Source: Minisyncoccota bacterium
GTDB taxonomy: Bacteria; Patescibacteriota; Minisyncoccia; Phycocordibacterales; Phycocordibacteraceae
NCBI GenBank assembly: GCA_022842945.1
Contig: JALHOO010000001.1
Coordinates: 157,830-221,829, forward strand
Direction of reading: 5' to 3'
Length of the DNA stretch: 64,000 nt
Shown: piece after piece, positions 7,771 to 62,386 of the stretch
How positions within the stretch are numbered: the stretch's first letter is position 1
Layout of the letters: each line of letters opens with the position of its first letter
Notes under the pieces: model-generated
The model's database searches: none
What the model was told of the DNA's origin: nothing
What the model saw: the letters and a program-made list of their open reading frames with translations, nothing else
Program-made: the position numbers and the translations under genes

Positions 7771-9174
7771 CTATGACTCAGGCTTCCAGTGTTCGAGCAT
7801 CTGTACGAGAAGCGGTACCGGTACGCCGGTAGCTGCGCCCTTGAAGAGGCCGTCCTTGCCGGTGCCTTCCATACCGGTTCCGGCGATGTCCAGATGGGCG
7901 AAGATGCCGTTCATGTCTTTTGCCGCGTCCGCGAGGAACGCGGCAGCAACACAGGACCCGCCCATTTTGCCGCCGTTCGGTTGCACGTTCGCGATGTATG
8001 CGACCGAGCTCTCGAGATCCGCCTCGTACCCTTCGTGGGGCATGTGCCAGACATCGTTCCCGGTCTCCTCACCCCAGATCTTCATGTGGTCGACGAAGCT
8101 GTCGTCCGAGCAGAAGAAGCCGGTGTGGCGGTTCCCGAGCGCGATGCGGATCGCGCCGGTAAGCGTAGCCACCGTAACCAGAAGGTGTGGATCGTGTTCG
8201 TTGAGGGCATGGGTGATACCGTCACGAAGCACGAGACGTCCTTCCGCGTCCGTGTTCAGAATCTCCACGGTCTTGCCGTCGAGACCCTTGATCACGTCCA
8301 TGGTGCGATAGCAGTCGGACGAGACGAGATTCTCGGCCGCCGGAACGATGGCAACGGCGTTAACGGGAAGCTTGAGCTTCGCCGCGATAAGAACAGCCAT
8401 GATGGCCGCAGCGCCGCCGCCCATATCCTTCTGCATGCCCTGGATTGCGCCAGAGAGCTTCAGGTCAGTGCCGCCGATGTCGAGCGTGACGCCCTTGCCG
8501 ACGATGGCCACATCCGTAACGGACGAATCTGGTTTCCCATCGTAAGAGAGCTCGATCAGGCAGGGCTTGTTCTTCGCCCCTTTCCCGACCGCACACAGTA
8601 AGCCATAGCCGTCCTTCTCCAGCTCCGCATAGTGTTTGACCACAACGCGAACGTTCTCGATTCCTTCAGCGAGCTTTTCAACGCGCCGGCCGAACTCCTC
8701 TGGATAGAGGTAGTTCGAGGGTTCGTCCACCAGTTCGCGGCAGGTGTTCACGCCGACGCCGATAATTGCGCCGGTACGCAGACCTGCTGCTTCGTCATCT
8801 CTGCAGTTGATGACATAGAAGTTCTCGACGCCAGAGTACCCCTTGCTCGGCATTTTGTACTTGCCGGAGCGATATGCCGCGAGCATCAGGTTCATGGCAT
8901 AGAGGCGTCCTTCAGAGAACAGGTCGCTGTTCTCGTCGAACGGCAGCACGTCAAGATAATCGAGTACGAGATCCGAAAGTTTGAGTCGGTGCGCCTCCTG
9001 CATGACCCCGCGCGCGATCGATGCGATACGAGCAGGATTGGTGAGCGTCCCGTCGATGCCGTACACCAGGATTTGCCTGGCCTCCGTCTTCGAGAGATAG
9101 GAAGTGTCGATGTCCGGGTCCAAACGAACCTGCACTGCGTGTGCGGGTGCTGATTCGGCTATATGAATCTTCAT
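7771..9174 (-). CDS. pepA: Leucyl aminopeptidase (M17)
   Basis: NTDAEGRL motif; 467 aa. Confidence 0.85.
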   Translation of the reverse strand: MKIHIAESAPAHAVQVRLDPDIDTSYLSKTEARQILVYGIDGTLTNPARIASIARGVMQEAHRLKLSDLVLDYLDVLPFDENSDLFSEGRLYAMNLMLAAYRSGKYKMPSKGYSGVENFYVINCRDDEAAGLRTGAIIGVGVNTCRELVDEPSNYLYPEEFGRRVEKLAEGIENVRVVVKHYAELEKDGYGLLCAVGKGAKNKPCLIELSYDGKPDSSVTDVAIVGKGVTLDIGGTDLKLSGAIQGMQKDMGGGAAAIMAVLIAAKLKLPVNAVAIVPAAENLVSSDCYRTMDVIKGLDGKTVEILNTDAEGRLVLRDGITHALNEHDPHLLVTVATLTGAIRIALGNRHTGFFCSDDSFVDHMKIWGEETGNDVWHMPHEGYEADLESSVAYIANVQPNGGKMGGSCVAAAFLADAAKDMNGIFAHLDIAGTGMEGTGKDGLFKGAATGVPVPLLVQMLEHWKPES

Positions 9175-38059: not shown

Positions 38060-39343
38060 ATGAAATCCCTACTCAAATCGTTCGTTGCAGGTTCTCTCGC
38101 GGTGCTCGCGGGTGCCGTTATACGCAAGTACCGTCCGCTTATCGTTATGGTAACGGGAAGCGTAGGGAAGACGTCAACGAAGGATGCGCTCGGAAGCGTA
38201 CTTGCGGGCAAGTTTAATCTGCGTGCAAGCGAGAAGAGCTACAACAGTGAGTTCGGTGTTCCGCTCACTATCCTTGGAAGCCGGAACCCGTGGGAGAACC
38301 CCTCGGCGTGGCTTCGAGTATTTAAGGAAGCATTCGCACTCCTTCTCCTTCCAAACATCTATCCGAAGCTTCTTGTGCTTGAGGTTGGTGCAGACAGGCC
38401 TGGAGACCTTGCACGCATCCTGCGCATTGCAGACCCTGACGCGGTTGTGGTTACGCGTCTTCCTGAGGTGCCGGTGCATGTTGAGGCGTACGCGAGTCCG
38501 CAGGCCGTGCGTGAGGAGGAATTCGCTCCTGCCTATGCGCTCACTCCTGGGGAGGCACTCATTATCTCTGCAGACGATCCTCATGCTATCGCTATGGCAG
38601 CGCGTCTTCCGGTTACTCTCACAACCTTCGGATTCGCAGACGGGGCTGATGTGCGTCTTGAAGGATACTCATACTTTGAAGAAAACGATGTGCGGGGTAT
38701 GGAGGCAATCCTTAATGTACGCGGAGAATCCTGCACCCTCCGGGTTATAGGCGCACTCGGCAAGTCCCAGCTCTATGCACCAGCAGCCGCTATTGCAACG
38801 GCGCTCTCGTTTGATATGCCGCTTAGTTTGGCGCTTGAAGGCGCACAAGCCTACGTACCTCCTGCCGGAAGAGGCCGCTTACTCGGAGGCAAGAACAACA
38901 CCCTCCTTATAGACGACTCATACAATGCGTCGCCTGCGGCCGTTGAAGAGGCGCTCTCTGCACTCCAACTGCTTCCAGGAAAGGGAAGAAGGATTGCCGC
39001 ACTTGGAGACATGCTTGAACTTGGACGGTATTCTGCAGAAGAACATGCGCGCATCGGTACGCTCTGTGCAGAGAAAGTTGATGTGCTGGTTGCGGTTGGT
39101 ACCCGCTCGCGCGCAACCGCTGAGGCAGCACGAGCTGCGGGTATGAAGGACGACAGTGTATTTGCCTTTGATACATCGCTAGAAGCTTCAGAGATGCTCG
39201 ACCTGTTTGTTCAAGAAGGGGATACGGTTCTGATTAAGGGCTCGCAGAGTATTCGTATGGAGCGCATTGCAGAGCGTCTTCTAAAGAACCCTGAGGACGG
39301 CGTAAAGCTGGTGCGGCAGGAGCGTGAGTGGAAGGCACGGTAG
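38060..39343 (+). CDS. murF: UDP-N-acetylmuramoyl-tripeptide--D-alanyl-D-alanine ligase
   Basis: Mur ligase P-loop VMVTGSVGKTSTKD and DDSYNASP motif. Confidence 0.85.
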   Translation: MKSLLKSFVAGSLAVLAGAVIRKYRPLIVMVTGSVGKTSTKDALGSVLAGKFNLRASEKSYNSEFGVPLTILGSRNPWENPSAWLRVFKEAFALLLLPNIYPKLLVLEVGADRPGDLARILRIADPDAVVVTRLPEVPVHVEAYASPQAVREEEFAPAYALTPGEALIISADDPHAIAMAARLPVTLTTFGFADGADVRLEGYSYFEENDVRGMEAILNVRGESCTLRVIGALGKSQLYAPAAAIATALSFDMPLSLALEGAQAYVPPAGRGRLLGGKNNTLLIDDSYNASPAAVEEALSALQLLPGKGRRIAALGDMLELGRYSAEEHARIGTLCAEKVDVLVAVGTRSRATAEAARAAGMKDDSVFAFDTSLEASEMLDLFVQEGDTVLIKGSQSIRMERIAERLLKNPEDGVKLVRQEREWKAR

Positions 39344-39424
39344 GAAACGTAGAATGAGTAAAAGAAGACCCGCTACATCCGAAGATGTAGCGGGTCAGTA
39401 TGCGTTATGTAGAGATTACGCGAG

Positions 39425-40792
39425 TCAGCCGTAGGTGCGACAGACTGCGCGCTTCACACCGCTCCACAGTAGGCGCACGTTTGTTGGCGCTTTGGGAGGA
39501 GTGTCGTTGCCACACATGGCGTACGTTTCGATGCGGACCAATACTGCGGCCTGTTTCTGACGTGACGTGTGCCGTTCGTAGAACTCGATTGCCTTGCCCA
39601 TGCCGCCCCAGAAGAGGATGATCAGGACTATTGCGATGATGCCGAACAGTGCGATGAGATACCATGCCCGGAGATCCGGATTCAGGAACCACGTCGCGGT
39701 AAGTGCGACCGCCGCAATCGGGAAGATGGGAACCAGCAGGAGTTTCCATCCCTTATAGTCCATCATGTGCTCATGCTCGTCTGATAGAAGCAGATTCTCT
39801 CCGAGCCTGGCCGACAGTCGAGTTGCCACGGCTTCCTTCCAGACCGGTAGCGGATTGCCGCCGAACAGAAAGTGCAGGATCCCGGCGAACAGAACCCAGG
39901 TCCGCTTGGTGATTTCGAACAGCAGGTATAGAGCCACGCCGAACGTGAACGCAAAGGCGATTCTTCCGCGCATGGAACACTCGTCCCTCGGCCTGTTCAG
40001 CTGGAAATAGCCCAGCCAGTCCTTCACCCAGTCGGGCAGAGGCTTGGCGAAGATCTCGGTTGGAACCGACACCTTCATGTGGTCGTAAGCGATGACCCGG
40101 CTGGTGCCCGAGATGAAGTCCAGATCGCGATGTGCAGTCCGAATTTCGTCGCCGTCGGAATCCCAGACGTTGATTTCGCCAGGCTTGTCGACGGCCTCCT
40201 TCAAGCGTGACCAGAAACGCCGTGCTTCGTTCGATTTCACCAGATAGGTGACGAAGTCGTAGTCGCCAGGGCTCCGGAAGGAGAAGTAGCCACGTCCGTC
40301 ACCGATGCGTTCGGCACCGTTTACAGTCTGGATGACTGTTTTCGACCTGTCCCACCATCTGTAGTTCGAGTCATCGTTACACTGCTTTTGGGCCACAATG
40401 ACCAGCGCCCACTGGCTCCCGATGTTGTCGCGCATGAAGGCCAGGATCTCTGGCTTGATGCACCACCGAAAGGGAACGGACGGATGATCGATCGTCGGGT
40501 CGTCGAAGTGAATCTCGACGGCGCCCTCGACAGGAAACTCGGAGGCTTCACGCACCTTGGCGGCGCGGAAAGCGTTCTCCCGTGTCGCGTCGTCGATGAC
40601 GGTGAAAGTCACCTGCATTCCAAGTTGTAGGCGAACATTGCAGTCGTCGCTGTGGATGTATACATCCTTTTTCGACGCCAAATCGGCCGGCGAACCGTCC
40701 TTCTTGGTGATGGTGCTGCGCTTGATGTAACCGTAGTCGCCGCCCCCGTTGAGTTTGTTGATGATACCTTTGTAGCGTTCTTGCTGGGCCAT
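39425..40792 (-). CDS. Cold-shock-domain (OB-fold) protein fused to an unknown 230-aa domain and a 4-TM C-terminal region
   Basis: N-terminal YKGIINKLNGGGDYGYIKR...DVYIHSDDC...GMQVTFTV aligns with the CspA RNP1/RNP2 region. There are four C-terminal hydrophobic helices. GC and codon use look higher than the neighbours, and it lies next to tRNA-Glu. Confidence 0.6.
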   Translation of the reverse strand: MAQQERYKGIINKLNGGGDYGYIKRSTITKKDGSPADLASKKDVYIHSDDCNVRLQLGMQVTFTVIDDATRENAFRAAKVREASEFPVEGAVEIHFDDPTIDHPSVPFRWCIKPEILAFMRDNIGSQWALVIVAQKQCNDDSNYRWWDRSKTVIQTVNGAERIGDGRGYFSFRSPGDYDFVTYLVKSNEARRFWSRLKEAVDKPGEINVWDSDGDEIRTAHRDLDFISGTSRVIAYDHMKVSVPTEIFAKPLPDWVKDWLGYFQLNRPRDECSMRGRIAFAFTFGVALYLLFEITKRTWVLFAGILHFLFGGNPLPVWKEAVATRLSARLGENLLLSDEHEHMMDYKGWKLLLVPIFPIAAVALTATWFLNPDLRAWYLIALFGIIAIVLIILFWGGMGKAIEFYERHTSRQKQAAVLVRIETYAMCGNDTPPKAPTNVRLLWSGVKRAVCRTYG

Positions 40793-40970
40793 GAAGGTCC
40801 CTTTCTGTTGTGAGCAGCAGAAGTTTTATTCTCTGGAAAGAACTGCTCTTTCTTCCAGAAATCCTATGCACCCGTTACGGATGCGCAGGAAGCTGGAGAA
40901 AAGAGCGTACGAAAATACTTTAACACTTAGAAGAATAAAGTCAATTTAGGCATTTGCCATAACTAAACGC

Positions 40971-40996
40971 AAAACCGCCCTTTCAGGGGCGGTTTT
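40971..40996. terminator. Bidirectional terminator between tRNA-Glu and the CSD-membrane gene promoter
   Basis: aaaaccgccc-tttcag-gggcggtttt. Confidence 0.65.
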
Positions 40997-41003
40997 GCTC
41001 GTG

Positions 41004-41075
41004 TGACCTCACGGGGAATCGAACCCCGATTTGATCCGTGAGAGGGATCTGTCCTAACCGTTAGACGATGAGGCC
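41004..41075 (-). tRNA. tRNA-Glu (anticodon CTC)
   Basis: Acceptor GGCCTCA/TGAGGTC, anticodon loop CTCTCAC, T-loop GGTTCGATTCC. CCA is not encoded. Confidence 0.7.
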
Positions 41076-41094
41076 GTACAGGTTTTATACCAGA

Positions 41095-41967
41095 TTACCG
41101 CAAGGAATTCCAGACCGGGTATCCGAGCCAGTGTCTACGCTTTCCTATACGAGTCCGCTTAATGGAGAGGCAGAGTCCCTTGGTATCAAGGTTTGCCCCT
41201 ATACGCTCCGCTAGGGTGCGCATATAGGTGCCTGAGGCGCAGACAACAGAGAGTGTAAGGATGGTGTACGAGCGGTTAGGAATCTTCCCAAAGAGAGACC
41301 TCCATTCTTCACGTATCTCGTCCTGTCTGAAGTCTGCACCCAGTTCCTTAGAGGGTTCGTCTGAACGGGGAGCTTTAGAGAGCATGGATTGTATGCGCGC
41401 GTGCAGTTCTTCAGCGGGTGTCTCAGAGAGACTCCTTTGCTTGATGGAATAGATGGTTTCGTTGTGGCGGGGTATCTCTACGGTACTGAGCGTTCCTTCA
41501 AGTGCGTACAGGAACAAGGGCTTTCCCTCCACCGTCTTTGAAGAGAATGCGGGGTACGCAACAAACTTGGTTCCTGTTTGCTCTTTGAGCACTTTCTTAA
41601 TCTCTGCAGGAGAGGGGAGTGTCTCTTTATCTGCATAGGTTGGCATACCAAGCACGTCCCCGGTATCTGTTGAGAAATCTAAGAGCACCTCAATCTCATA
41701 CTCCTTATCAAGACCTCTATAGTTCTCCTGGCGCTTGCATTCCTCTCCAAGAAGCACGAGCAACATGCCTTCAGCCATAGGGTCCAGTCTTCCCGCATAG
41801 CTTGCAGGAATGTTCGTGTAGGCAGGGTTAGCAGCTTTCCACGCTGTTATAGCTTCAAGGGGCGTTTGACCCACTTCTTTATACAGAAGGACGTAGGGAG
41901 GGATCATAGGGTAATGGTATGGTACGAGGTATGAAAATGAAAACCGCCCAGTCGCTTTCTGCAACAC
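41095..41967 (-). CDS. truB: tRNA pseudouridine(55) synthase TruB
   Basis: AGRLDPMAEGMLLVLLGE catalytic Asp motif; the C-terminal extension is PUA-like. Confidence 0.8.
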   Translation of the reverse strand: MLQKATGRFSFSYLVPYHYPMIPPYVLLYKEVGQTPLEAITAWKAANPAYTNIPASYAGRLDPMAEGMLLVLLGEECKRQENYRGLDKEYEIEVLLDFSTDTGDVLGMPTYADKETLPSPAEIKKVLKEQTGTKFVAYPAFSSKTVEGKPLFLYALEGTLSTVEIPRHNETIYSIKQRSLSETPAEELHARIQSMLSKAPRSDEPSKELGADFRQDEIREEWRSLFGKIPNRSYTILTLSVVCASGTYMRTLAERIGANLDTKGLCLSIKRTRIGKRRHWLGYPVWNSLR

Positions 41968-43199: not shown

Positions 43200-43949
43200 C
43201 TAGGTCCGGTACGAAGCGGGAATGCTCGCATACCCCTCCTTGGAGACGATGACATGATCTACAAGCTCAATACCAAGGAGACGTCCTGCGTCTATGAGCT
43301 GCTTCGTAACTGCGAGATCTGCAGAGGAGGGAACCAGGTCCCCTGAGGGATGGTTGTGTACGAGGATTACCGCAGCTGCCGCATACTCAAGTGCTGGACG
43401 GAATACTTCACGCGGATGCACCAGGTTCGTGTCTATGGTGCCTATAGACAGTACCTCGTCGCGAATAACCTTATATCGACTATTGAGATAGAGCCCCCGC
43501 AGGTGCTCCTTGGGAAGTGTGCGCATGTCCGTAACATGCTCGAAGACATCGCTTGCCGTGCGCACGATAGGGAGCTGGCGATCATTCTTCGCAAAGAATC
43601 GGCGCCCAAGCTCAGCACTCGCCACAATCTGCATACTCTTCCCAAGAGGAATGCCTGCTTGTTCTGCAAGGCGCGCCGCATCCGTCTCCTGCATGATTGA
43701 ACGGTCTCCGTACTCGCTCGTTATGCGCTCTGCCATGGAGAGCACATTCTCTTTGCGGGTTCCTACGGAAAGCACAATGGCTATAAGCTCGGTTGTTGAA
43801 AGTGCCGAGGGTCCTTGGGTAAGGAGGCGTTCGCGCGGGCGCTCGTCATGCGGGAGGTCGTTAATGGCGAGAACGTACGGGTGCTCCACTTCAGAAAGTA
43901 GGGAAGCTGAAGGGGTAACGACGTACGGGCTTCGGATAGCGTGTCTCAT
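43200..43949 (-). CDS. radC: RadC-like JAB/MPN domain protein
   Basis: JAMM motif HNHPSGDLVPSSADLAVT and an N-terminal HhH-like region. Confidence 0.8.
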   Translation of the reverse strand: MRHAIRSPYVVTPSASLLSEVEHPYVLAINDLPHDERPRERLLTQGPSALSTTELIAIVLSVGTRKENVLSMAERITSEYGDRSIMQETDAARLAEQAGIPLGKSMQIVASAELGRRFFAKNDRQLPIVRTASDVFEHVTDMRTLPKEHLRGLYLNSRYKVIRDEVLSIGTIDTNLVHPREVFRPALEYAAAAVILVHNHPSGDLVPSSADLAVTKQLIDAGRLLGIELVDHVIVSKEGYASIPASYRT

Positions 43950-56796: not shown

Positions 56797-57387
56797 TCAG
56801 TTCCGCTTGGTCTGCGGCTGGCCCGTTGCCGGGGGAGCCGCGGCGGCTGCAGCTGCGGCCGGGGCGGCGGCGGGGCGGGCATCGATGCGCGCCTGGAGGC
56901 CTTCAACGAGGGTGTTGGACGTCTCCCAGCGTGCGTAGGACTGGGTCCATTTCCTCTGGAGTGCGACCTTCTCGTCGGAAAGTCTGTCGACTTCGCGTGC
57001 GAGTTCTGAACGCGTGACCTCCGCGGCCGCGAGCTCGGTTGCGACGGGATCCCTGAGGGCCGCCTTGCAGATGCTCCAGTAGGTGTCGCCCTTCTGGAAG
57101 GTGACGGTCGGAAGACCGCACACGTCCTTCCGGGTCTCGCCGACCTGGATGGCGCGGGCTTCCCGTTCCGTGTCGCCGTTGGCGATGCGGGCCTTGCGGG
57201 CAGCGTCGGCGATCATGGGGTCGGTGACGGCCACGATCGGGGCAGGCACGACAGGCGCAGGACGAGCAGCCGGGGCTGCAGTTTCCTGCACCGGGGCAGT
57301 CTGTTCGGCGATCGCTTGATCCTGGCCTTTGCAGGCGGGAACCAAAAGAGCGAGGCACAAGCCTGCCAACACGATAATCTTTTTCAT
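56797..57387 (-). CDS. LysM-domain lipoprotein with Ala/Pro-rich linkers
   Basis: Signal peptide ending LVPAC (lipobox-like), a LysM core VTFQKGDTYWSICKAAL, and a C-terminal AAAPAAAAAAAAPPATG tract encoded by a GC-rich GCN run. Confidence 0.6.
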   Translation of the reverse strand: MKKIIVLAGLCLALLVPACKGQDQAIAEQTAPVQETAAPAARPAPVVPAPIVAVTDPMIADAARKARIANGDTEREARAIQVGETRKDVCGLPTVTFQKGDTYWSICKAALRDPVATELAAAEVTRSELAREVDRLSDEKVALQRKWTQSYARWETSNTLVEGLQARIDARPAAAPAAAAAAAAPPATGQPQTKRN

Positions 57388-60421: not shown

Positions 60422-60516
60422 CGGCGAGATGGCAGAGTGGCTTAATGTTACGGCCCTCGATGGCCGTAGGGGAAGCTCAGACTTCTCTCGCAGGTTCGAA
60501 TCCTGCTCTTGCCGCC
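60422..60516 (+). tRNA. tRNA-Ser (class II, long variable arm; anticodon probably CGA)
   Basis: Acceptor GGCGAGA/TCTTGCC, G73 discriminator, encoded CCA, T-loop GGTTCGAATCC. My hand fold gives an atypical 8-nt anticodon loop. Confidence 0.7.
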
Positions 60517-60542
60517 AACCGTTCTTTAGGCATGATTGATAG

Positions 60543-60617
60543 GGGTGGGTAGCTCAGCGGTAGAGCGCTGGCACTCTGTGTCAGAGGTCGCGGGTTCGAA
60601 TCTCGCCTCTCCCTCCA
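60543..60617 (+). tRNA. tRNA-Arg (anticodon TCT by hand fold)
   Basis: 75 nt with encoded CCA and T-loop GGTTCGAATCT. The anticodon stem CTGGC/GTCAG has a loop ACTCTGT, with C at position 33 (unusual). Confidence 0.6.
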
Positions 60618-61669: not shown

Positions 61670-62386
61670 ATGGCAAAGGTAAGTAATTTTATATTTGTTG
61701 ATGAGGCGGGTGATCCTGGGGCACCGTATTCGATCGGGAATGACGGTGTAAAAATCTCTACGGGTGCGAGCCCTTTTTATATTATTGCCGCATTGTGCGT
61801 AGACGAACGCCAACTTCATTTGATGGAGGACAGGATAATGGCTGTGAAAAGCGCTTTCGGGTATACAAAGGAAATTAAGAGTAACGAAATTTCGCTGCCC
61901 CTCTACAGAGCTCTTCTAGAGATAGTTAATGAACTTGGTGTAAAGATTTATTACTGTCTAGTTGATAAGGCTAATTATCAAGGACAATTTAAAGTCGACG
62001 GAATTCGTGAGCTACACAACGTATTTGACGAGTACCATCTTGTTAAGGCAGTTACTTGCGCTGTTGTCGATGGAGACTTAAGAGATGTAGAAGTTGTAAT
62101 AGATAGAACCGATAGACGCCTTCTCGATGGAAAATTTGAAGCTTTTGATAATTATTTAATTCGGAAGGTCAAAAAGTATTTTGGCGATAAAGATTTTGGG
62201 AGAATAAACCACATCACTCATGTGAATTCTCAGTATGTTAATGCAATGCAAATGTCAGATATTGTGGGGGGAGCAATACGAGATAATTTCACAGGAAAGA
62301 ATACGGATCTCATCGCGGTTCTCTCAGAGGAGCTTCTTATAAAAGCTACCGGTAAAAGGTATAAACCTCTTACAATTGAGATATAA
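61670..62386 (+). CDS. DUF3800-like protein
   Basis: N-terminal FIFVDEAGDPG matches the DUF3800 DESG-type start; the AT-rich codon usage differs from the core genes. Confidence 0.55.
   Translation: MAKVSNFIFVDEAGDPGAPYSIGNDGVKISTGASPFYIIAALCVDERQLHLMEDRIMAVKSAFGYTKEIKSNEISLPLYRALLEIVNELGVKIYYCLVDKANYQGQFKVDGIRELHNVFDEYHLVKAVTCAVVDGDLRDVEVVIDRTDRRLLDGKFEAFDNYLIRKVKKYFGDKDFGRINHITHVNSQYVNAMQMSDIVGGAIRDNFTGKNTDLIAVLSEELLIKATGKRYKPLTIEI

What the first reader, a model, noticed from the sequence alone, without database searches (positions are those of the whole stretch)
39344..41075. Cold-shock-domain/4-TM membrane fusion protein of unknown function, at the 3' edge of the dcw cluster against tRNA-Glu
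The gene at 39425-40792 is on the opposite strand to the dcw genes, directly after murF. It encodes a 455-aa protein.

Domain layout I can see:
- A clear CspA-like OB fold at the N-terminus: GIINKLNGGGDYGYIKR / DVYIHSDD / VTFTV.
- An unrecognisable W/D/R-rich domain of about 230 aa.
- Four C-terminal TM helices.

By eye its GC content and GC3 look higher than the neighbours. It is bracketed by a bidirectional terminator and a tRNA-Glu gene; tRNA genes are classic integration sites. A nucleic-acid-binding OB fold wired to a membrane module as a single-gene island is the layout of several abortive-infection and stress-effector systems, but I cannot place this one in any named family. It could also be a distant DUF1294-type CSD-membrane protein with an inserted domain.
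Basis: partly seen in the sequence, partly recalled or inferred. Interest (0 to 1): 0.75.

Follow-up and report, generated by a model that had tools for sequence, protein, structure and literature searches.

The report
Self-regulated membrane cold-shock-domain gene cassette
A 1.6-kb stand-alone gene cassette in a Paceibacterota (candidate-phyla-radiation) genome encodes a membrane-anchored protein with a cold-shock (single-strand nucleic-acid-binding) domain from an uncharacterised family. It also carries a strongly conserved structured RNA leader that matches no Rfam family and probably switches the gene's expression; the protein's cellular role is still unknown.

Summary

The core (sandwich, membrane helices, tail) defines a large unannotated family of 346 cluster representatives. 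Its most conserved residues are four cysteines. Many members lack the CSD.

The gene is accessory. The two closest long relatives are collinear over 15 kb and have murF-tRNA-Glu-truB with nothing inserted. An 85%-identical copy, running exactly from the -35 box to the terminator, sits in an unrelated context. There is no integrase and no att repeat.

A ~100-nt structured 5' leader precedes all 12 CSD-bearing members examined and none of four CSD-less ones. It shows strong covariation, a conserved mutually exclusive alternative helix, and no Rfam match. It is more conserved than the protein.

Best reading (confidence about 0.4): a portable, self-regulated cassette in which the protein's own CSD and/or temperature acts on the pyrimidine-rich leader, as with cspA. 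What the membrane module does is unknown. A defence role is neither supported nor excluded. It is not DUF1294.

The parts
40917..40944 (-). Promoter of the cassette: -35 TTGACT, 16-nt spacer, TG-extended -10 TAAAGT.
   Evidence: Consensus scan. Read by eye from the upstream sequences printed, a TTGAC(A/T)-like -35 box with a -10 box about 17 nt downstream lies just upstream of the leader in most of the other loci (L004 has TTTACT; the L011 -10 is doubtful). Homology with the 85%-identical copy L008 begins exactly at the -35 box.
40793..40918 (-). Structured 5' leader RNA.
- P1: 40902-40893 with 40858-40849.
- P2: 40890-40879 with 40873-40862.
- P3: 40848-40843 with 40817-40812.
- Alternative helix P-alt: 40861-40850 with 40842-40830, mutually exclusive with P1 and P3.
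- SD-like AAAGGGA at 40804-40798.
   Evidence: - Covariance model R1 scores 88-110 bits in 12 of 12 loci with a CSD-bearing member, one true hit per locus. One of these (L020) was not in the training set.
- 95.5% of cells are paired against 40-59% for slid controls; 12 pairs have compensatory changes against 1-3.
- P-alt is 95.1% paired against 41-69%, with 3 compensatory pairs.
- MFE z-score is -4.5.
- No Rfam family matches this strand at E<=10.
40547..40777 (-). Cold-shock domain, residues ~6-82, with RNP1 GDYGYI and RNP2 DVYIH and a 13-aa insertion between them.
40007..40531 (-). Cytoplasmic beta-sandwich domain, residues ~88-262, with the conserved VPxRWC motif (W110, C111) and the EIFAKPLP motif (F248, A249).
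39602..39982 (-). Membrane region, residues 271-397: the D-E-C juxtamembrane motif (D270, C272), helices 276-293, 298-312, 349-370 and 376-397, the GGNPLPVW motif and invariant P355.
   Evidence: Hydropathy, AF2 helices and conservation.
39425..39601 (-). Basic C-terminal tail, residues 398-455 (K+R 10, D+E 4), with conserved C427, K447, C451 and R452, plus the stop codon.
   Evidence: C272 and C451 are never substituted (146 of 146 and 138 of 138 aligned). C111 and C427 are lost together in 9 of the 12 variants that lack C427.
39355..39396 (-). Intrinsic terminator of the cassette: 13-bp stem, 4-nt loop, then a U-run.
   Evidence: It is conserved in L008, with compensatory stem changes, and homology ends just after the U-run.
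40966..41096 (-). Resident tRNA-Glu(CTC) block: -10 box, tRNA at 41003-41075, terminator at 40969-40998. It is not part of the cassette. It marks the insertion site and is inverted relative to the related genomes.
   Evidence: It is 92-95% identical to L024 and L025 but in the opposite orientation, while the flanks are collinear.

Best explanation
The region is a portable promoter-to-terminator cassette (about 39355-40946) that was inserted just 3' of the resident tRNA-Glu of a Paceibacterota genome.

The protein:
- It is anchored in the cytoplasmic membrane, most likely with both ends inside the cell.
- Its N-terminal cold-shock domain can bind single-stranded, pyrimidine-rich RNA or DNA.
- The CSD is followed by a cytoplasmic beta-sandwich, four membrane helices and a basic tail.
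- Two conserved cysteine pairs, C111/C427 and C272/C451, probably tie the tail and the juxtamembrane segment to the sandwich.

Regulation:
- Expression is controlled after transcription by a ~100-nt leader.
- The leader folds as P1+P2+P3, or alternatively as P2+P-alt.
- The strands that change partner are pyrimidine tracts (CUCUUUUCUCC, GUUCUUUCC) of the kind CSDs prefer.
- I therefore propose that the protein's own CSD binds the nascent leader, possibly together with low temperature, and shifts the fold. This would set translation of its own mRNA, as CspA does with the cspA 5' UTR.
- A built-in feedback of this kind would let the gene function wherever it lands.

Shown here: the gene, its family, the accessory status, the cassette limits, the CSD homology, the leader structure and the co-occurrence of leader and CSD.

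Inferred: the topology, a metal or thiol role for the cysteines, CSD-leader binding, and the direction of regulation.

Unknown: what the membrane module does.
For: Real, selected gene:
- dN/dS is 0.14 against the 85%-identical copy, with dS 0.54.
- 346 cluster representatives match at E<=1e-3.

CSD homology with the binding aromatics kept.

Accessory cassette:
- Empty syntenic sites in L024 and L025.
- Homology to L008 runs only from the -35 box to the terminator, with unrelated flanks.
- Contexts differ in L001, L004, L005, L007, L011 and L013-16.

Leader:
- Found in 12 of 12 CSD-bearing loci, once each, and nowhere else in about 212 kb.
- Absent, with filters off, from the CSD-less members (L017, L018, L019) and from the empty-site relatives.
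- Covariation supports the fold and the alternative helix.
- Leader core identity averages 68% where the proteins average 37%. Against L008 it is 99%, where the aligned cassette DNA is 85% identical.
- State A is favoured by about 1-17 kcal/mol in 11 of 12 leaders (in L009 state B is favoured by 0.9), so reaching state B generally needs a factor.

Literature:
- Bs-CspB prefers pyrimidine-rich GTCTTTG/T; TTCTTTT is a high-affinity control (PMC1904285).
- cspA mRNA has a cis thermosensor plus trans action of CspA on its own mRNA (PMC9947658).

Topology:
- The tail carries a net charge of about +5 across 136 members.
- No member examined starts with a hydrophobic signal-like segment, including the CSD-less forms (sequences read; no signal-peptide predictor was run).
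Against: - No binding or expression data exist.
- The link between leader and CSD rests on 12 loci against 4, and these are not phylogenetically independent.
- Stand-alone csp genes in L004 and L005 lack the leader, so it is not a general CSD target.
- The Shine-Dalgarno region is not consistently sequestered in either fold, so the regulatory output cannot be read from the sequence.
- P-alt is supported mostly by conservation; only 3 pairs covary.
- AF2 draws 285-309 as one continuous helix running through the proposed TM1/TM2 turn, so the four-pass topology is uncertain.
- I could not inspect model coordinates to check whether the cysteines cluster.
- The explanation does not say what the membrane module does.
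Confidence: 0.4

Rival explanations
1. Single-gene anti-phage (abortive-infection) effector. The CSD senses phage single-stranded nucleic acid, the membrane module then oligomerises and collapses the membrane, and the leader keeps a toxic protein tightly repressed.
For: - Sporadic, accessory distribution with insertion at tRNA-flanking variable spots.
- In L005 the gene lies in a ~10-kb variable region that starts with a serine recombinase at tRNA-Asn.
- In L001 it sits beside a type IIG-like methylase/Eco57I gene, inserted into the ribosomal-protein operon.
- GmrSD and DUF3800 lie 4-6 kb away in L009 and L011.
- The layout, a sensor domain plus C-terminal TM helices, resembles known membrane effectors (from my own knowledge).
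- CSD proteins occur in type V retrons: the PADLOC CSD_V model hits 4 of 60 members weakly.
Against: - No PADLOC model matches the protein beyond the CSD domain.
- There is no PHROG, BFVD or viral-contig relative.
- Most neighbours are housekeeping genes: murF, truB, the atp operon, ribosomal proteins, an RND pump, pyruvate kinase.
- In one clade the position upstream of the atp operon is conserved.
- Most family members lack any sensor-like CSD.
Confidence: 0.2
2. Cold- or envelope-stress adaptation protein whose leader is purely an RNA thermosensor, with no autoregulation. The membrane-tethered CSD chaperones U-rich mRNAs for membrane proteins at the membrane in the cold.
For: - A long structured 5' UTR on a CSD gene is the cspA paradigm (PMC9947658, PMC6386945).
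- E. coli CspE and CspC bind uracil-rich mRNAs encoding membrane proteins and shift them towards the membrane (PMC5571963).
- The source samples include sediment and groundwater-type metagenomes; this is my inference from the JGI/Logan sources.
- Two alternative folds exist.
Against: - The energy gap between the folds hardly changes between 37 and 10 C in silico, and is large in half of the leaders.
- SD accessibility barely changes with temperature.
- The gene is absent from the closest relatives, which is odd for a general adaptation.
- CSD-less members lack the leader, tying the leader to the domain rather than to the membrane module.
Confidence: 0.2
3. The leader is a riboswitch, or the binding site of another trans factor, sensing a small molecule or ion related to the function of the membrane module. 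Its co-occurrence with the CSD reflects shared ancestry only.
For: - Highly conserved unpaired nucleotides and mutually exclusive helices are typical of riboswitches.
- The leader is more conserved than the coding sequence.
- All 12 leader-bearing genes may form one clade.
Against: - No multi-stem junction or obvious ligand pocket is present; the fold is one long interrupted hairpin plus one stem-loop.
- No Rfam match.
- The element is seen only with this one gene family.
- The conserved single strands are complementary to each other, which by itself explains their conservation.
Confidence: 0.12
4. Ordinary vertically inherited core gene of this lineage whose odd composition reflects expression level. 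The tRNA adjacency is coincidental.
For: - The GC3 excess is gene-intrinsic in all seven loci where it could be computed.
- L009 and L020 share one context.
- Purifying selection is strong.
Against: - Empty sites in the two closest long relatives.
- An 85%-identical copy in a different context, with homology limited to promoter through terminator.
- Only 14 word-search homologues, against thousands for MurF.
- tRNA-Glu lies directly upstream in 3 of 12 independent contexts. I estimate about 1e-3 per locus by chance, assuming ~2 tRNA-Glu genes per ~1-Mb genome.
Confidence: 0.03

Closest known systems
CspA-family cold-shock proteins and the cspA 5'-UTR thermosensor / autoregulatory leader (E. 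coli; Rfam cspA family)
   Same: CSD fold with RNP1/RNP2 aromatic residues. A long structured 5' UTR with alternative folds. Pyrimidine-rich tracts of the type CSDs bind (PMC1904285). The protein acting on its own mRNA is established for CspA (PMC9947658).
   Different: The CSD here is only the first 85 of 455 residues and is tethered to a membrane module. It has a 13-aa insertion between RNP1 and RNP2. The leader has no sequence or structure match to the Rfam cspA model or to any other Rfam family. Stand-alone csp genes of related genomes lack this leader.
DUF1294 (PF06961) CSD-membrane fusion proteins
   Same: An N-terminal CSD followed by membrane helices.
   Different: No DUF1294 match at E<=10 for this protein, and none in 60 members. 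This protein has a 185-aa beta-sandwich and a Cys-bearing basic tail that DUF1294 proteins lack (their small size is from my own knowledge).
Ligand-sensing membrane effectors of defence systems (e.g. CBASS Cap15 beta-barrel + TM; retron type V CSD proteins)
   Same: A cytoplasmic sensor or beta-rich domain joined to a few TM helices, encoded by a sporadically distributed gene. There is a weak CSD_V hit for 4 of 60 members.
   Different: No homology beyond the CSD. There is no partner gene (cyclase, reverse transcriptase or msr/msd) in any of the loci. No consistent defence neighbourhood is seen.
tRNA-targeted genomic islands
   Same: The gene lies immediately 3' of a tRNA gene in three unrelated contexts, and the site is variable among relatives. 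L024 carries a different 99-aa ORF there.
   Different: There is no integrase, no duplicated tRNA 3' end and no att repeat. The unit is a single gene of 1.6 kb, and the tRNA block is inverted.

Membership tests
Cold-shock domain (Pfam PF00313 CSD) | Sequence match to the family model above the curated threshold | tested here: not met
   12.8 bits, E=0.11, against a cutoff of 27 bits. Eight of 60 family members reach E<=0.01, best 1.6e-5.
Cold-shock domain (Pfam PF00313 CSD) | Five-stranded OB-type beta-barrel with RNP1 (K/x-G-F/Y-G-F/Y-I) and RNP2 (V-F/Y-V/I-H) motifs | tested here: met
Cold-shock domain (Pfam PF00313 CSD) | Binds single-stranded nucleic acid | not testable with these tools
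   Needs EMSA or ITC with the purified domain.
DUF1294 (PF06961) CSD-membrane proteins | Match to the DUF1294 membrane-domain model | tested here: not met
   No hit at E<=10 for this protein, and none in 60 members at E<=0.01.
Known anti-phage defence proteins (PADLOC-DB v2) | Match of the protein, beyond a generic domain, to a defence-system model, with the system's partner genes nearby | tested here: not met
   No hit for this protein at E<=10. Only CSD_V, best E=7e-4, in 4 of 60 members. No conserved partner genes.
tRNA-integrating genomic island | Absent from the syntenic site of close relatives | tested here: met
   L024 and L025 are collinear at 74-78% nt identity, have tRNA-Glu present and lack the gene.
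tRNA-integrating genomic island | Integrase or recombinase gene, and direct repeats duplicating the tRNA 3' end at the far border | tested here: not met
   Only one ORF lies between murF and the tRNA. No repeat of 10 nt or more involves the tRNA.
cspA-type 5' UTR (Rfam) and any other Rfam cis-regulatory family | Covariance-model match | tested here: not met
   No hit on the leader strand at E<=10. Only tRNAs pass gathering thresholds across the whole window.
Structured cis-regulatory RNA switch (generic kind) | Conserved secondary structure supported by compensatory changes, located in the 5' UTR of one gene family | tested here: met
   28 pairs, 95.5% paired, 12 with double changes against 1-3 in slid controls. 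Found in 12 of 12 loci, always between the promoter and the start codon.
Structured cis-regulatory RNA switch (generic kind) | Two mutually exclusive conserved folds | tested here: met
   P-alt has 12 pairs, 95.1% paired against 41-69% slid, with 3 compensatory pairs. It overlaps the P1 3' strand and the P3 5' strand and loop. Support is weaker than for P1-P3, and state A is favoured energetically.
Structured cis-regulatory RNA switch (generic kind) | Identified effector (ligand, protein or temperature) and a regulatory output | not testable with these tools
   Needs structure probing and reporter assays. In-silico SD accessibility is inconsistent.

The most novel reading that the evidence does not exclude
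The cassette is a one-gene feedback circuit of a new kind. A membrane-tethered cold-shock domain recognises a dedicated bistable leader RNA, a new RNA motif class confined to this family, and so meters production of a new type of membrane effector. That effector is built around two conserved cysteine pairs (a metal or redox site) and acts in stress response or phage defence in CPR bacteria. The unit spreads between genomes as a bare promoter-to-terminator module that lands 3' of tRNA-Glu without any recombinase of its own.
Probability: 0.25. Interest if true: 0.78.

Novelty: new variant of a known kind. Interest (0 to 1): 0.62.

Why it matters
CPR/Patescibacteria genomes are small and full of unannotated genes, and very few of their regulatory RNAs are known.

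This locus offers three things:
- A well-supported new structured leader RNA: 12 examples, strong covariation and an alternative helix. Its likely effector, the CSD encoded just downstream, is directly testable.
- A definition of a large unannotated membrane-protein family of 346 cluster representatives, marked by VPxRWC, FAKPxP, D-E/Q-C and a C-terminal C...K...CR motif, with a confident AF2 model (pLDDT 90).
- A clean example of gene mobility as a bare promoter-to-terminator cassette with mapped ends and empty sites.

If the CSD does bind its own leader, this would be a compact, transplantable autoregulatory module. It would also be the first functional handle on a membrane-anchored bacterial CSD protein.

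Tried and rejected
Searches that found nothing:
- DUF1294 membership: no Pfam hit.
- NCBIfam: no family.
- PADLOC: only weak CSD_V domain hits.
- PHROGs: nothing below E=0.01.
- BFVD fold search: no hit at E<=1e-3.
- Viral contigs: no protein relative and no leader pattern.
- Rfam: no family for the leader.
- Literature: no paper on membrane-anchored bacterial CSD proteins or on this leader.
- Cluster look-up: only 'hypothetical protein' and one generic name.

Ideas tested and dropped:
- att-type direct repeats or inverted repeats at the cassette borders: none convincing.
- Foreign-composition argument: the GC3 excess is gene-intrinsic in every host tested, so it is not used as evidence of recent transfer.
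- SD sequestration or a temperature effect in silico: inconsistent across the 12 leaders.
- An overlapping 107-aa ORF in the leader frame (40548-40871): treated as spurious, because leader indels are not multiples of three and the covariation fits RNA pairing.

Technical failures:
- The AFDB50 fold library was unavailable.
- A locus scan with the 60-sequence alignment failed for lack of conserved blocks.
- A second word-based homologue search with that alignment added only one protein.
- MAFFT misaligned the 3' strand of P3, so the covariance-model alignment A6 was used instead.
- AF2 coordinates could not be inspected, so Cys-Cys distances are untested.
Full report
1. WHAT IS AT THE COORDINATES

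ORF 39425-40792 (minus strand, 455 aa) is real. It lies between murF (38060-39343, +) and tRNA-Glu(CTC) (41003-41075, -), which is followed by truB (41095-41967, -).

Two hairpins bracket the gene. One is at 39367-39396, with a 13-bp stem and a U-run on the gene's strand only. The other is at 40969-40998 and terminates the tRNA. A sigma-70-type promoter, TTGACT-16-TGnTAAAGT, lies at 40944-40917.

MurF homologues are named Paceibacterota, Parcubacteria or Patescibacteria. The only species-representative genome carrying a relative of the protein is a Candidatus Paceibacterota MAG. The window therefore comes from a CPR bacterium.

2. THE PROTEIN

Curated libraries give almost nothing:
- Pfam CSD at E=0.11.
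- No NCBIfam family.
- No PADLOC model.
- No PHROG family.

The N-terminal cold-shock domain is nevertheless well supported:
- The 15-sequence family profile matches B. subtilis CspB by hhalign at 92.6% probability, E=4.5e-7.
- GDYGYI aligns to RNP1 and DVYIH to RNP2, with a 13-residue insertion between them.
- The profile hits only CSD chains in the PDB.

A second AF2 model of residues 85-455, built from a 76-sequence alignment, is confident (pLDDT 90, pTM 0.82). It shows:
- a beta-sandwich at about residues 88-262;
- helices at 271-283, 285-309, 356-370 and 372-395;
- two C-terminal helices.

Hydropathy and charge statistics over 136 members show three clearly hydrophobic helices and one weaker one. 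The tail is strongly basic, with a net charge of about +5. No member I read, including the CSD-less forms, begins with a hydrophobic signal-like segment; no signal-peptide predictor was run. Together these favour both ends being in the cytoplasm. This is an inference, because AF2 draws 285-309 as one continuous helix.

3. THE FAMILY

A word-indexed search found 14 full-length relatives. An exhaustive phmmer search of 1.84 billion cluster representatives found 346 at E<=1e-3 and 31 at E<=1e-30. Three forms appear:
- Many members of 360-400 aa start at query residue ~90 and lack the CSD.
- Others of 505-530 aa have longer linkers.
- Small stand-alone CSDs of the same subtype also exist.

None carries an informative name.

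Across 157 sequences the most conserved positions are W110-C111, F172, G176, P244, F248-A249, D270, C272, P355, C427, K447 and C451-R452. C272 and C451 are never substituted. C111 and C427 are replaced together in 9 of the 12 variants that lack C427. This points to two interacting pairs. Because the domain is cytoplasmic, I read them as metal or thiol-based contacts rather than structural disulfides (inference).

4. ACCESSORY STATUS AND CASSETTE LIMITS

The two closest MurF relatives on long contigs are L024 (79% identical) and L025 (77%, on a 502-kb contig). Both are collinear with window 32.1-47.4 kb at 74-78% nt identity. Their gene order is mraZ-rsmH-ftsL-ftsI-murF, then tRNA-Glu, then truB, yqeY, a P-type ATPase and rmuC. 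Neither has the gene there:
- L025 has nothing between the tRNA and truB.
- L024 has an unrelated 99-aa ORF at that spot.

The tRNA-Glu block (window 40966-41096) is 92-95% identical to theirs but inverted relative to the flanks.

The 87%-identical protein P0002 lies in L008 among sortase and hypothetical genes. DNA homology to the window (85% over 1599 bp) starts at the -35 box, about 40946. It ends just after the terminator U-run, about 39355. The terminator stem shows compensatory changes. Between these two copies dN/dS is 0.14 and dS is 0.54.

Other members lie in quite different places:
- Inside the ribosomal-protein operon between rplE and rpsH, together with PadR, PspC and a type IIG-like methylase (L001).
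- Next to an RND pump and Cho/ImuB/LexA (L004).
- In a ~10-kb variable segment that begins with a serine recombinase at tRNA-Asn, in a genome otherwise syntenic with window 15-20 kb (L005).
- Upstream of the atp operon in two related contigs, which is a conserved position within that clade (L009 and L020).

In three unrelated contexts (the window, L007 and L011) the gene lies 3' of a tRNA-Glu on the same strand. In the window and in L011 the gap from the tRNA 3' end to the -35 box is 57-58 nt.

There is no integrase and no att repeat. Viral contigs hold no relative.

GC3 is high, 0.739 against 0.574+/-0.071. However, the same excess of 0.14-0.23 over neighbours appears in all seven loci where it could be computed. 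It is therefore a property of the gene, not proof of recent import.

5. THE LEADER RNA (not in the original finding)

blastn showed that about 95 nt upstream of the start codon are conserved at 75-81% identity in loci whose proteins are only about 30-45% identical. All 12 distinct loci with a CSD-bearing member have a promoter followed by this ~100-125-nt leader.

Evidence for the main fold:
- RNAalifold predicts P1 and P2, forming one long interrupted hairpin, and P3, a stem enclosing a conserved loop.
- The window leader folds with z=-4.5.
- Covariance model R1 finds exactly one strong hit per locus, at 88-110 bits. This includes L020, which was not used in training.
- R1 finds nothing else in about 212 kb, including near stand-alone csp genes.
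- With filters off, R1 is absent from the empty-site relatives and from the CSD-less loci L017, L018 (two tandem paralogues) and L019.
- On the model-based alignment 95.5% of cells pair, against 40-59% when partners are slid. Twelve pairs show double changes, against 1-3. P3 is 100% paired, with 3 of its 6 pairs compensatory.

Evidence for an alternative fold:
- The two most conserved 'unpaired' stretches are GGAUUUCUGGAGGAAA (the 3' strand of P1) and GUUCCUUUCAGAAAUC (the loop of P3). They are complementary to each other.
- This 12-bp helix, P-alt, is 95.1% paired against 41-69% slid and has 3 compensatory pairs.
- P-alt excludes both P1 and P3.

The P1+P2+P3 state is favoured by about 1-17 kcal/mol in 11 of the 12 leaders; in L009 state B is slightly favoured, by 0.9 kcal/mol. 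Reaching the alternative state therefore generally needs a factor. Rfam has no matching family.

The leader core averages 68% identity where the proteins average 37%. Between the window and L008 it is 99% identical, where the aligned cassette DNA is 85% identical and dS is 0.54.

6. HOW IT MOST LIKELY WORKS

The strands that swap partners are pyrimidine tracts:
- CUCUUUUCUCC, the P1 5' strand in the window.
- GUUCUUUCC, in the P3 loop in the window.

These resemble the preferred CSD sites GTCTTTG/T and TTCTTTT (PMC1904285).

In E. coli, cspA mRNA combines a cis-acting thermosensor with trans action of CspA on its own mRNA (PMC9947658).

The leader occurs with the CSD in 12 of 12 loci and in none of the 4 CSD-less genes examined.

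I therefore favour autoregulation. The CSD of the membrane protein, possibly with cold, binds the nascent P1 5' strand or the P3 loop and redistributes the leader between its two folds. That in turn sets translation. The sign of the effect cannot be read from the sequence, because SD accessibility is inconsistent across leaders.

A built-in feedback of this kind would suit a gene that moves as a bare cassette into arbitrary contexts.

What the membrane module does is unknown. Two possibilities:
- Tethering U-rich mRNAs at the membrane. CspE and CspC bind mRNAs for membrane proteins (PMC5571963).
- A stress or defence effector.

My confidence in the overall model is about 0.4. For the sub-claims it is about 0.9 for the accessory cassette and 0.85 for a structured regulatory leader.

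7. COMPARISON WITH KNOWN SYSTEMS, AND NOVELTY

The locus works like a cspA-type gene (a CSD plus a regulatory 5' UTR). It is not a member of the Rfam cspA family, and its CSD falls below the Pfam threshold. It is not DUF1294. It matches no defence family. It lacks the integrase and att features of classical tRNA islands.

Both the protein core family and the leader appear to be undescribed: there is no curated model, no solved structure and no paper.

I rate it a new variant of a known kind. The interest lies mainly in the new, well-supported RNA switch with an obvious candidate effector, and in the definition of a large unannotated membrane family.

Noticed in passing
window 43200-43949 (-): A radC gene (RadC JAB plus UPF0758_N domains) lies between yqeY and the P-type ATPase. 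In the collinear relatives L024 and L025, yqeY is followed directly by the ATPase. This is a second small insertion in the window's lineage, only 2.4 kb from the first.
   Followed up: partly
window 60423-60617 and 61670-62386: Two adjacent tRNA genes: a 95-nt tRNA-like gene with an undetermined anticodon (Rfam tRNA 41.9 bits) and tRNA-Arg(TCT). They are followed by a low-GC (0.39, GC3 0.35) DUF3800 gene, a compositional outlier that may mark another tRNA-flanking insertion.
   Followed up: partly
window 56797-57387 (-): A 196-aa ORF with very high GC (0.67, GC3 0.77) and no Pfam match. It is the strongest high-GC outlier in the window and may not be a real gene.
   Followed up: no
window 40966-41096 versus L024 7329-7441 and L025 7302-7433: The tRNA-Glu block (its -10 box, the tRNA and its terminator) is 92-95% identical to the relatives but inverted, while both flanks are collinear. 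No inverted repeats that could explain the inversion were found.
   Followed up: partly
L005 3193-15800: This genome is syntenic with window 15-20 kb (fmt, tRNA-Asn, yggT, SET). It carries about 10 kb extra between tRNA-Asn and yggT. The segment starts with a serine recombinase and contains the family member, a HicA toxin and a csp gene. No att repeats were detected.
   Followed up: partly
L001 7745-14250 (and L002, L012): The family gene, together with PadR, a PspC-domain protein and a type IIG-like N6-methylase/Eco57I gene, is inserted inside the ribosomal-protein operon between rplE and rpsH. A perfect 20+20-nt palindrome (ATATCTACTGAATTAATTAC/GTAATTAATTCAGTAGATAT, about 7795-7835) lies just upstream of the cassette promoter and looks like an operator.
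   Followed up: no
L018 2-1912; L017 1284-2934: CSD-less family members occur as tandem paralogues separated by 6 nt (L018). One also sits directly behind a 105-aa receiver-like ORF, with a 1-nt gap (L017). Both contigs are AT-rich, and neither gene has the leader.
   Followed up: partly
window 39425-40792 and loci L001, L005, L007, L009, L011, L020: The family gene has GC3 0.14-0.23 above its neighbours in all seven loci where this could be computed, whatever the host GC. This is a gene-intrinsic codon bias with no explanation so far.
   Followed up: partly
L021-L023 (contigs carrying the identical protein): Three of the five contigs that carry the identical protein were shown, from separate sequencing runs. 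All three end 231-240 nt upstream of the start codon, next to or just inside the tRNA-Glu gene. This suggests strain-level variation or a repeat at that junction.
   Followed up: no
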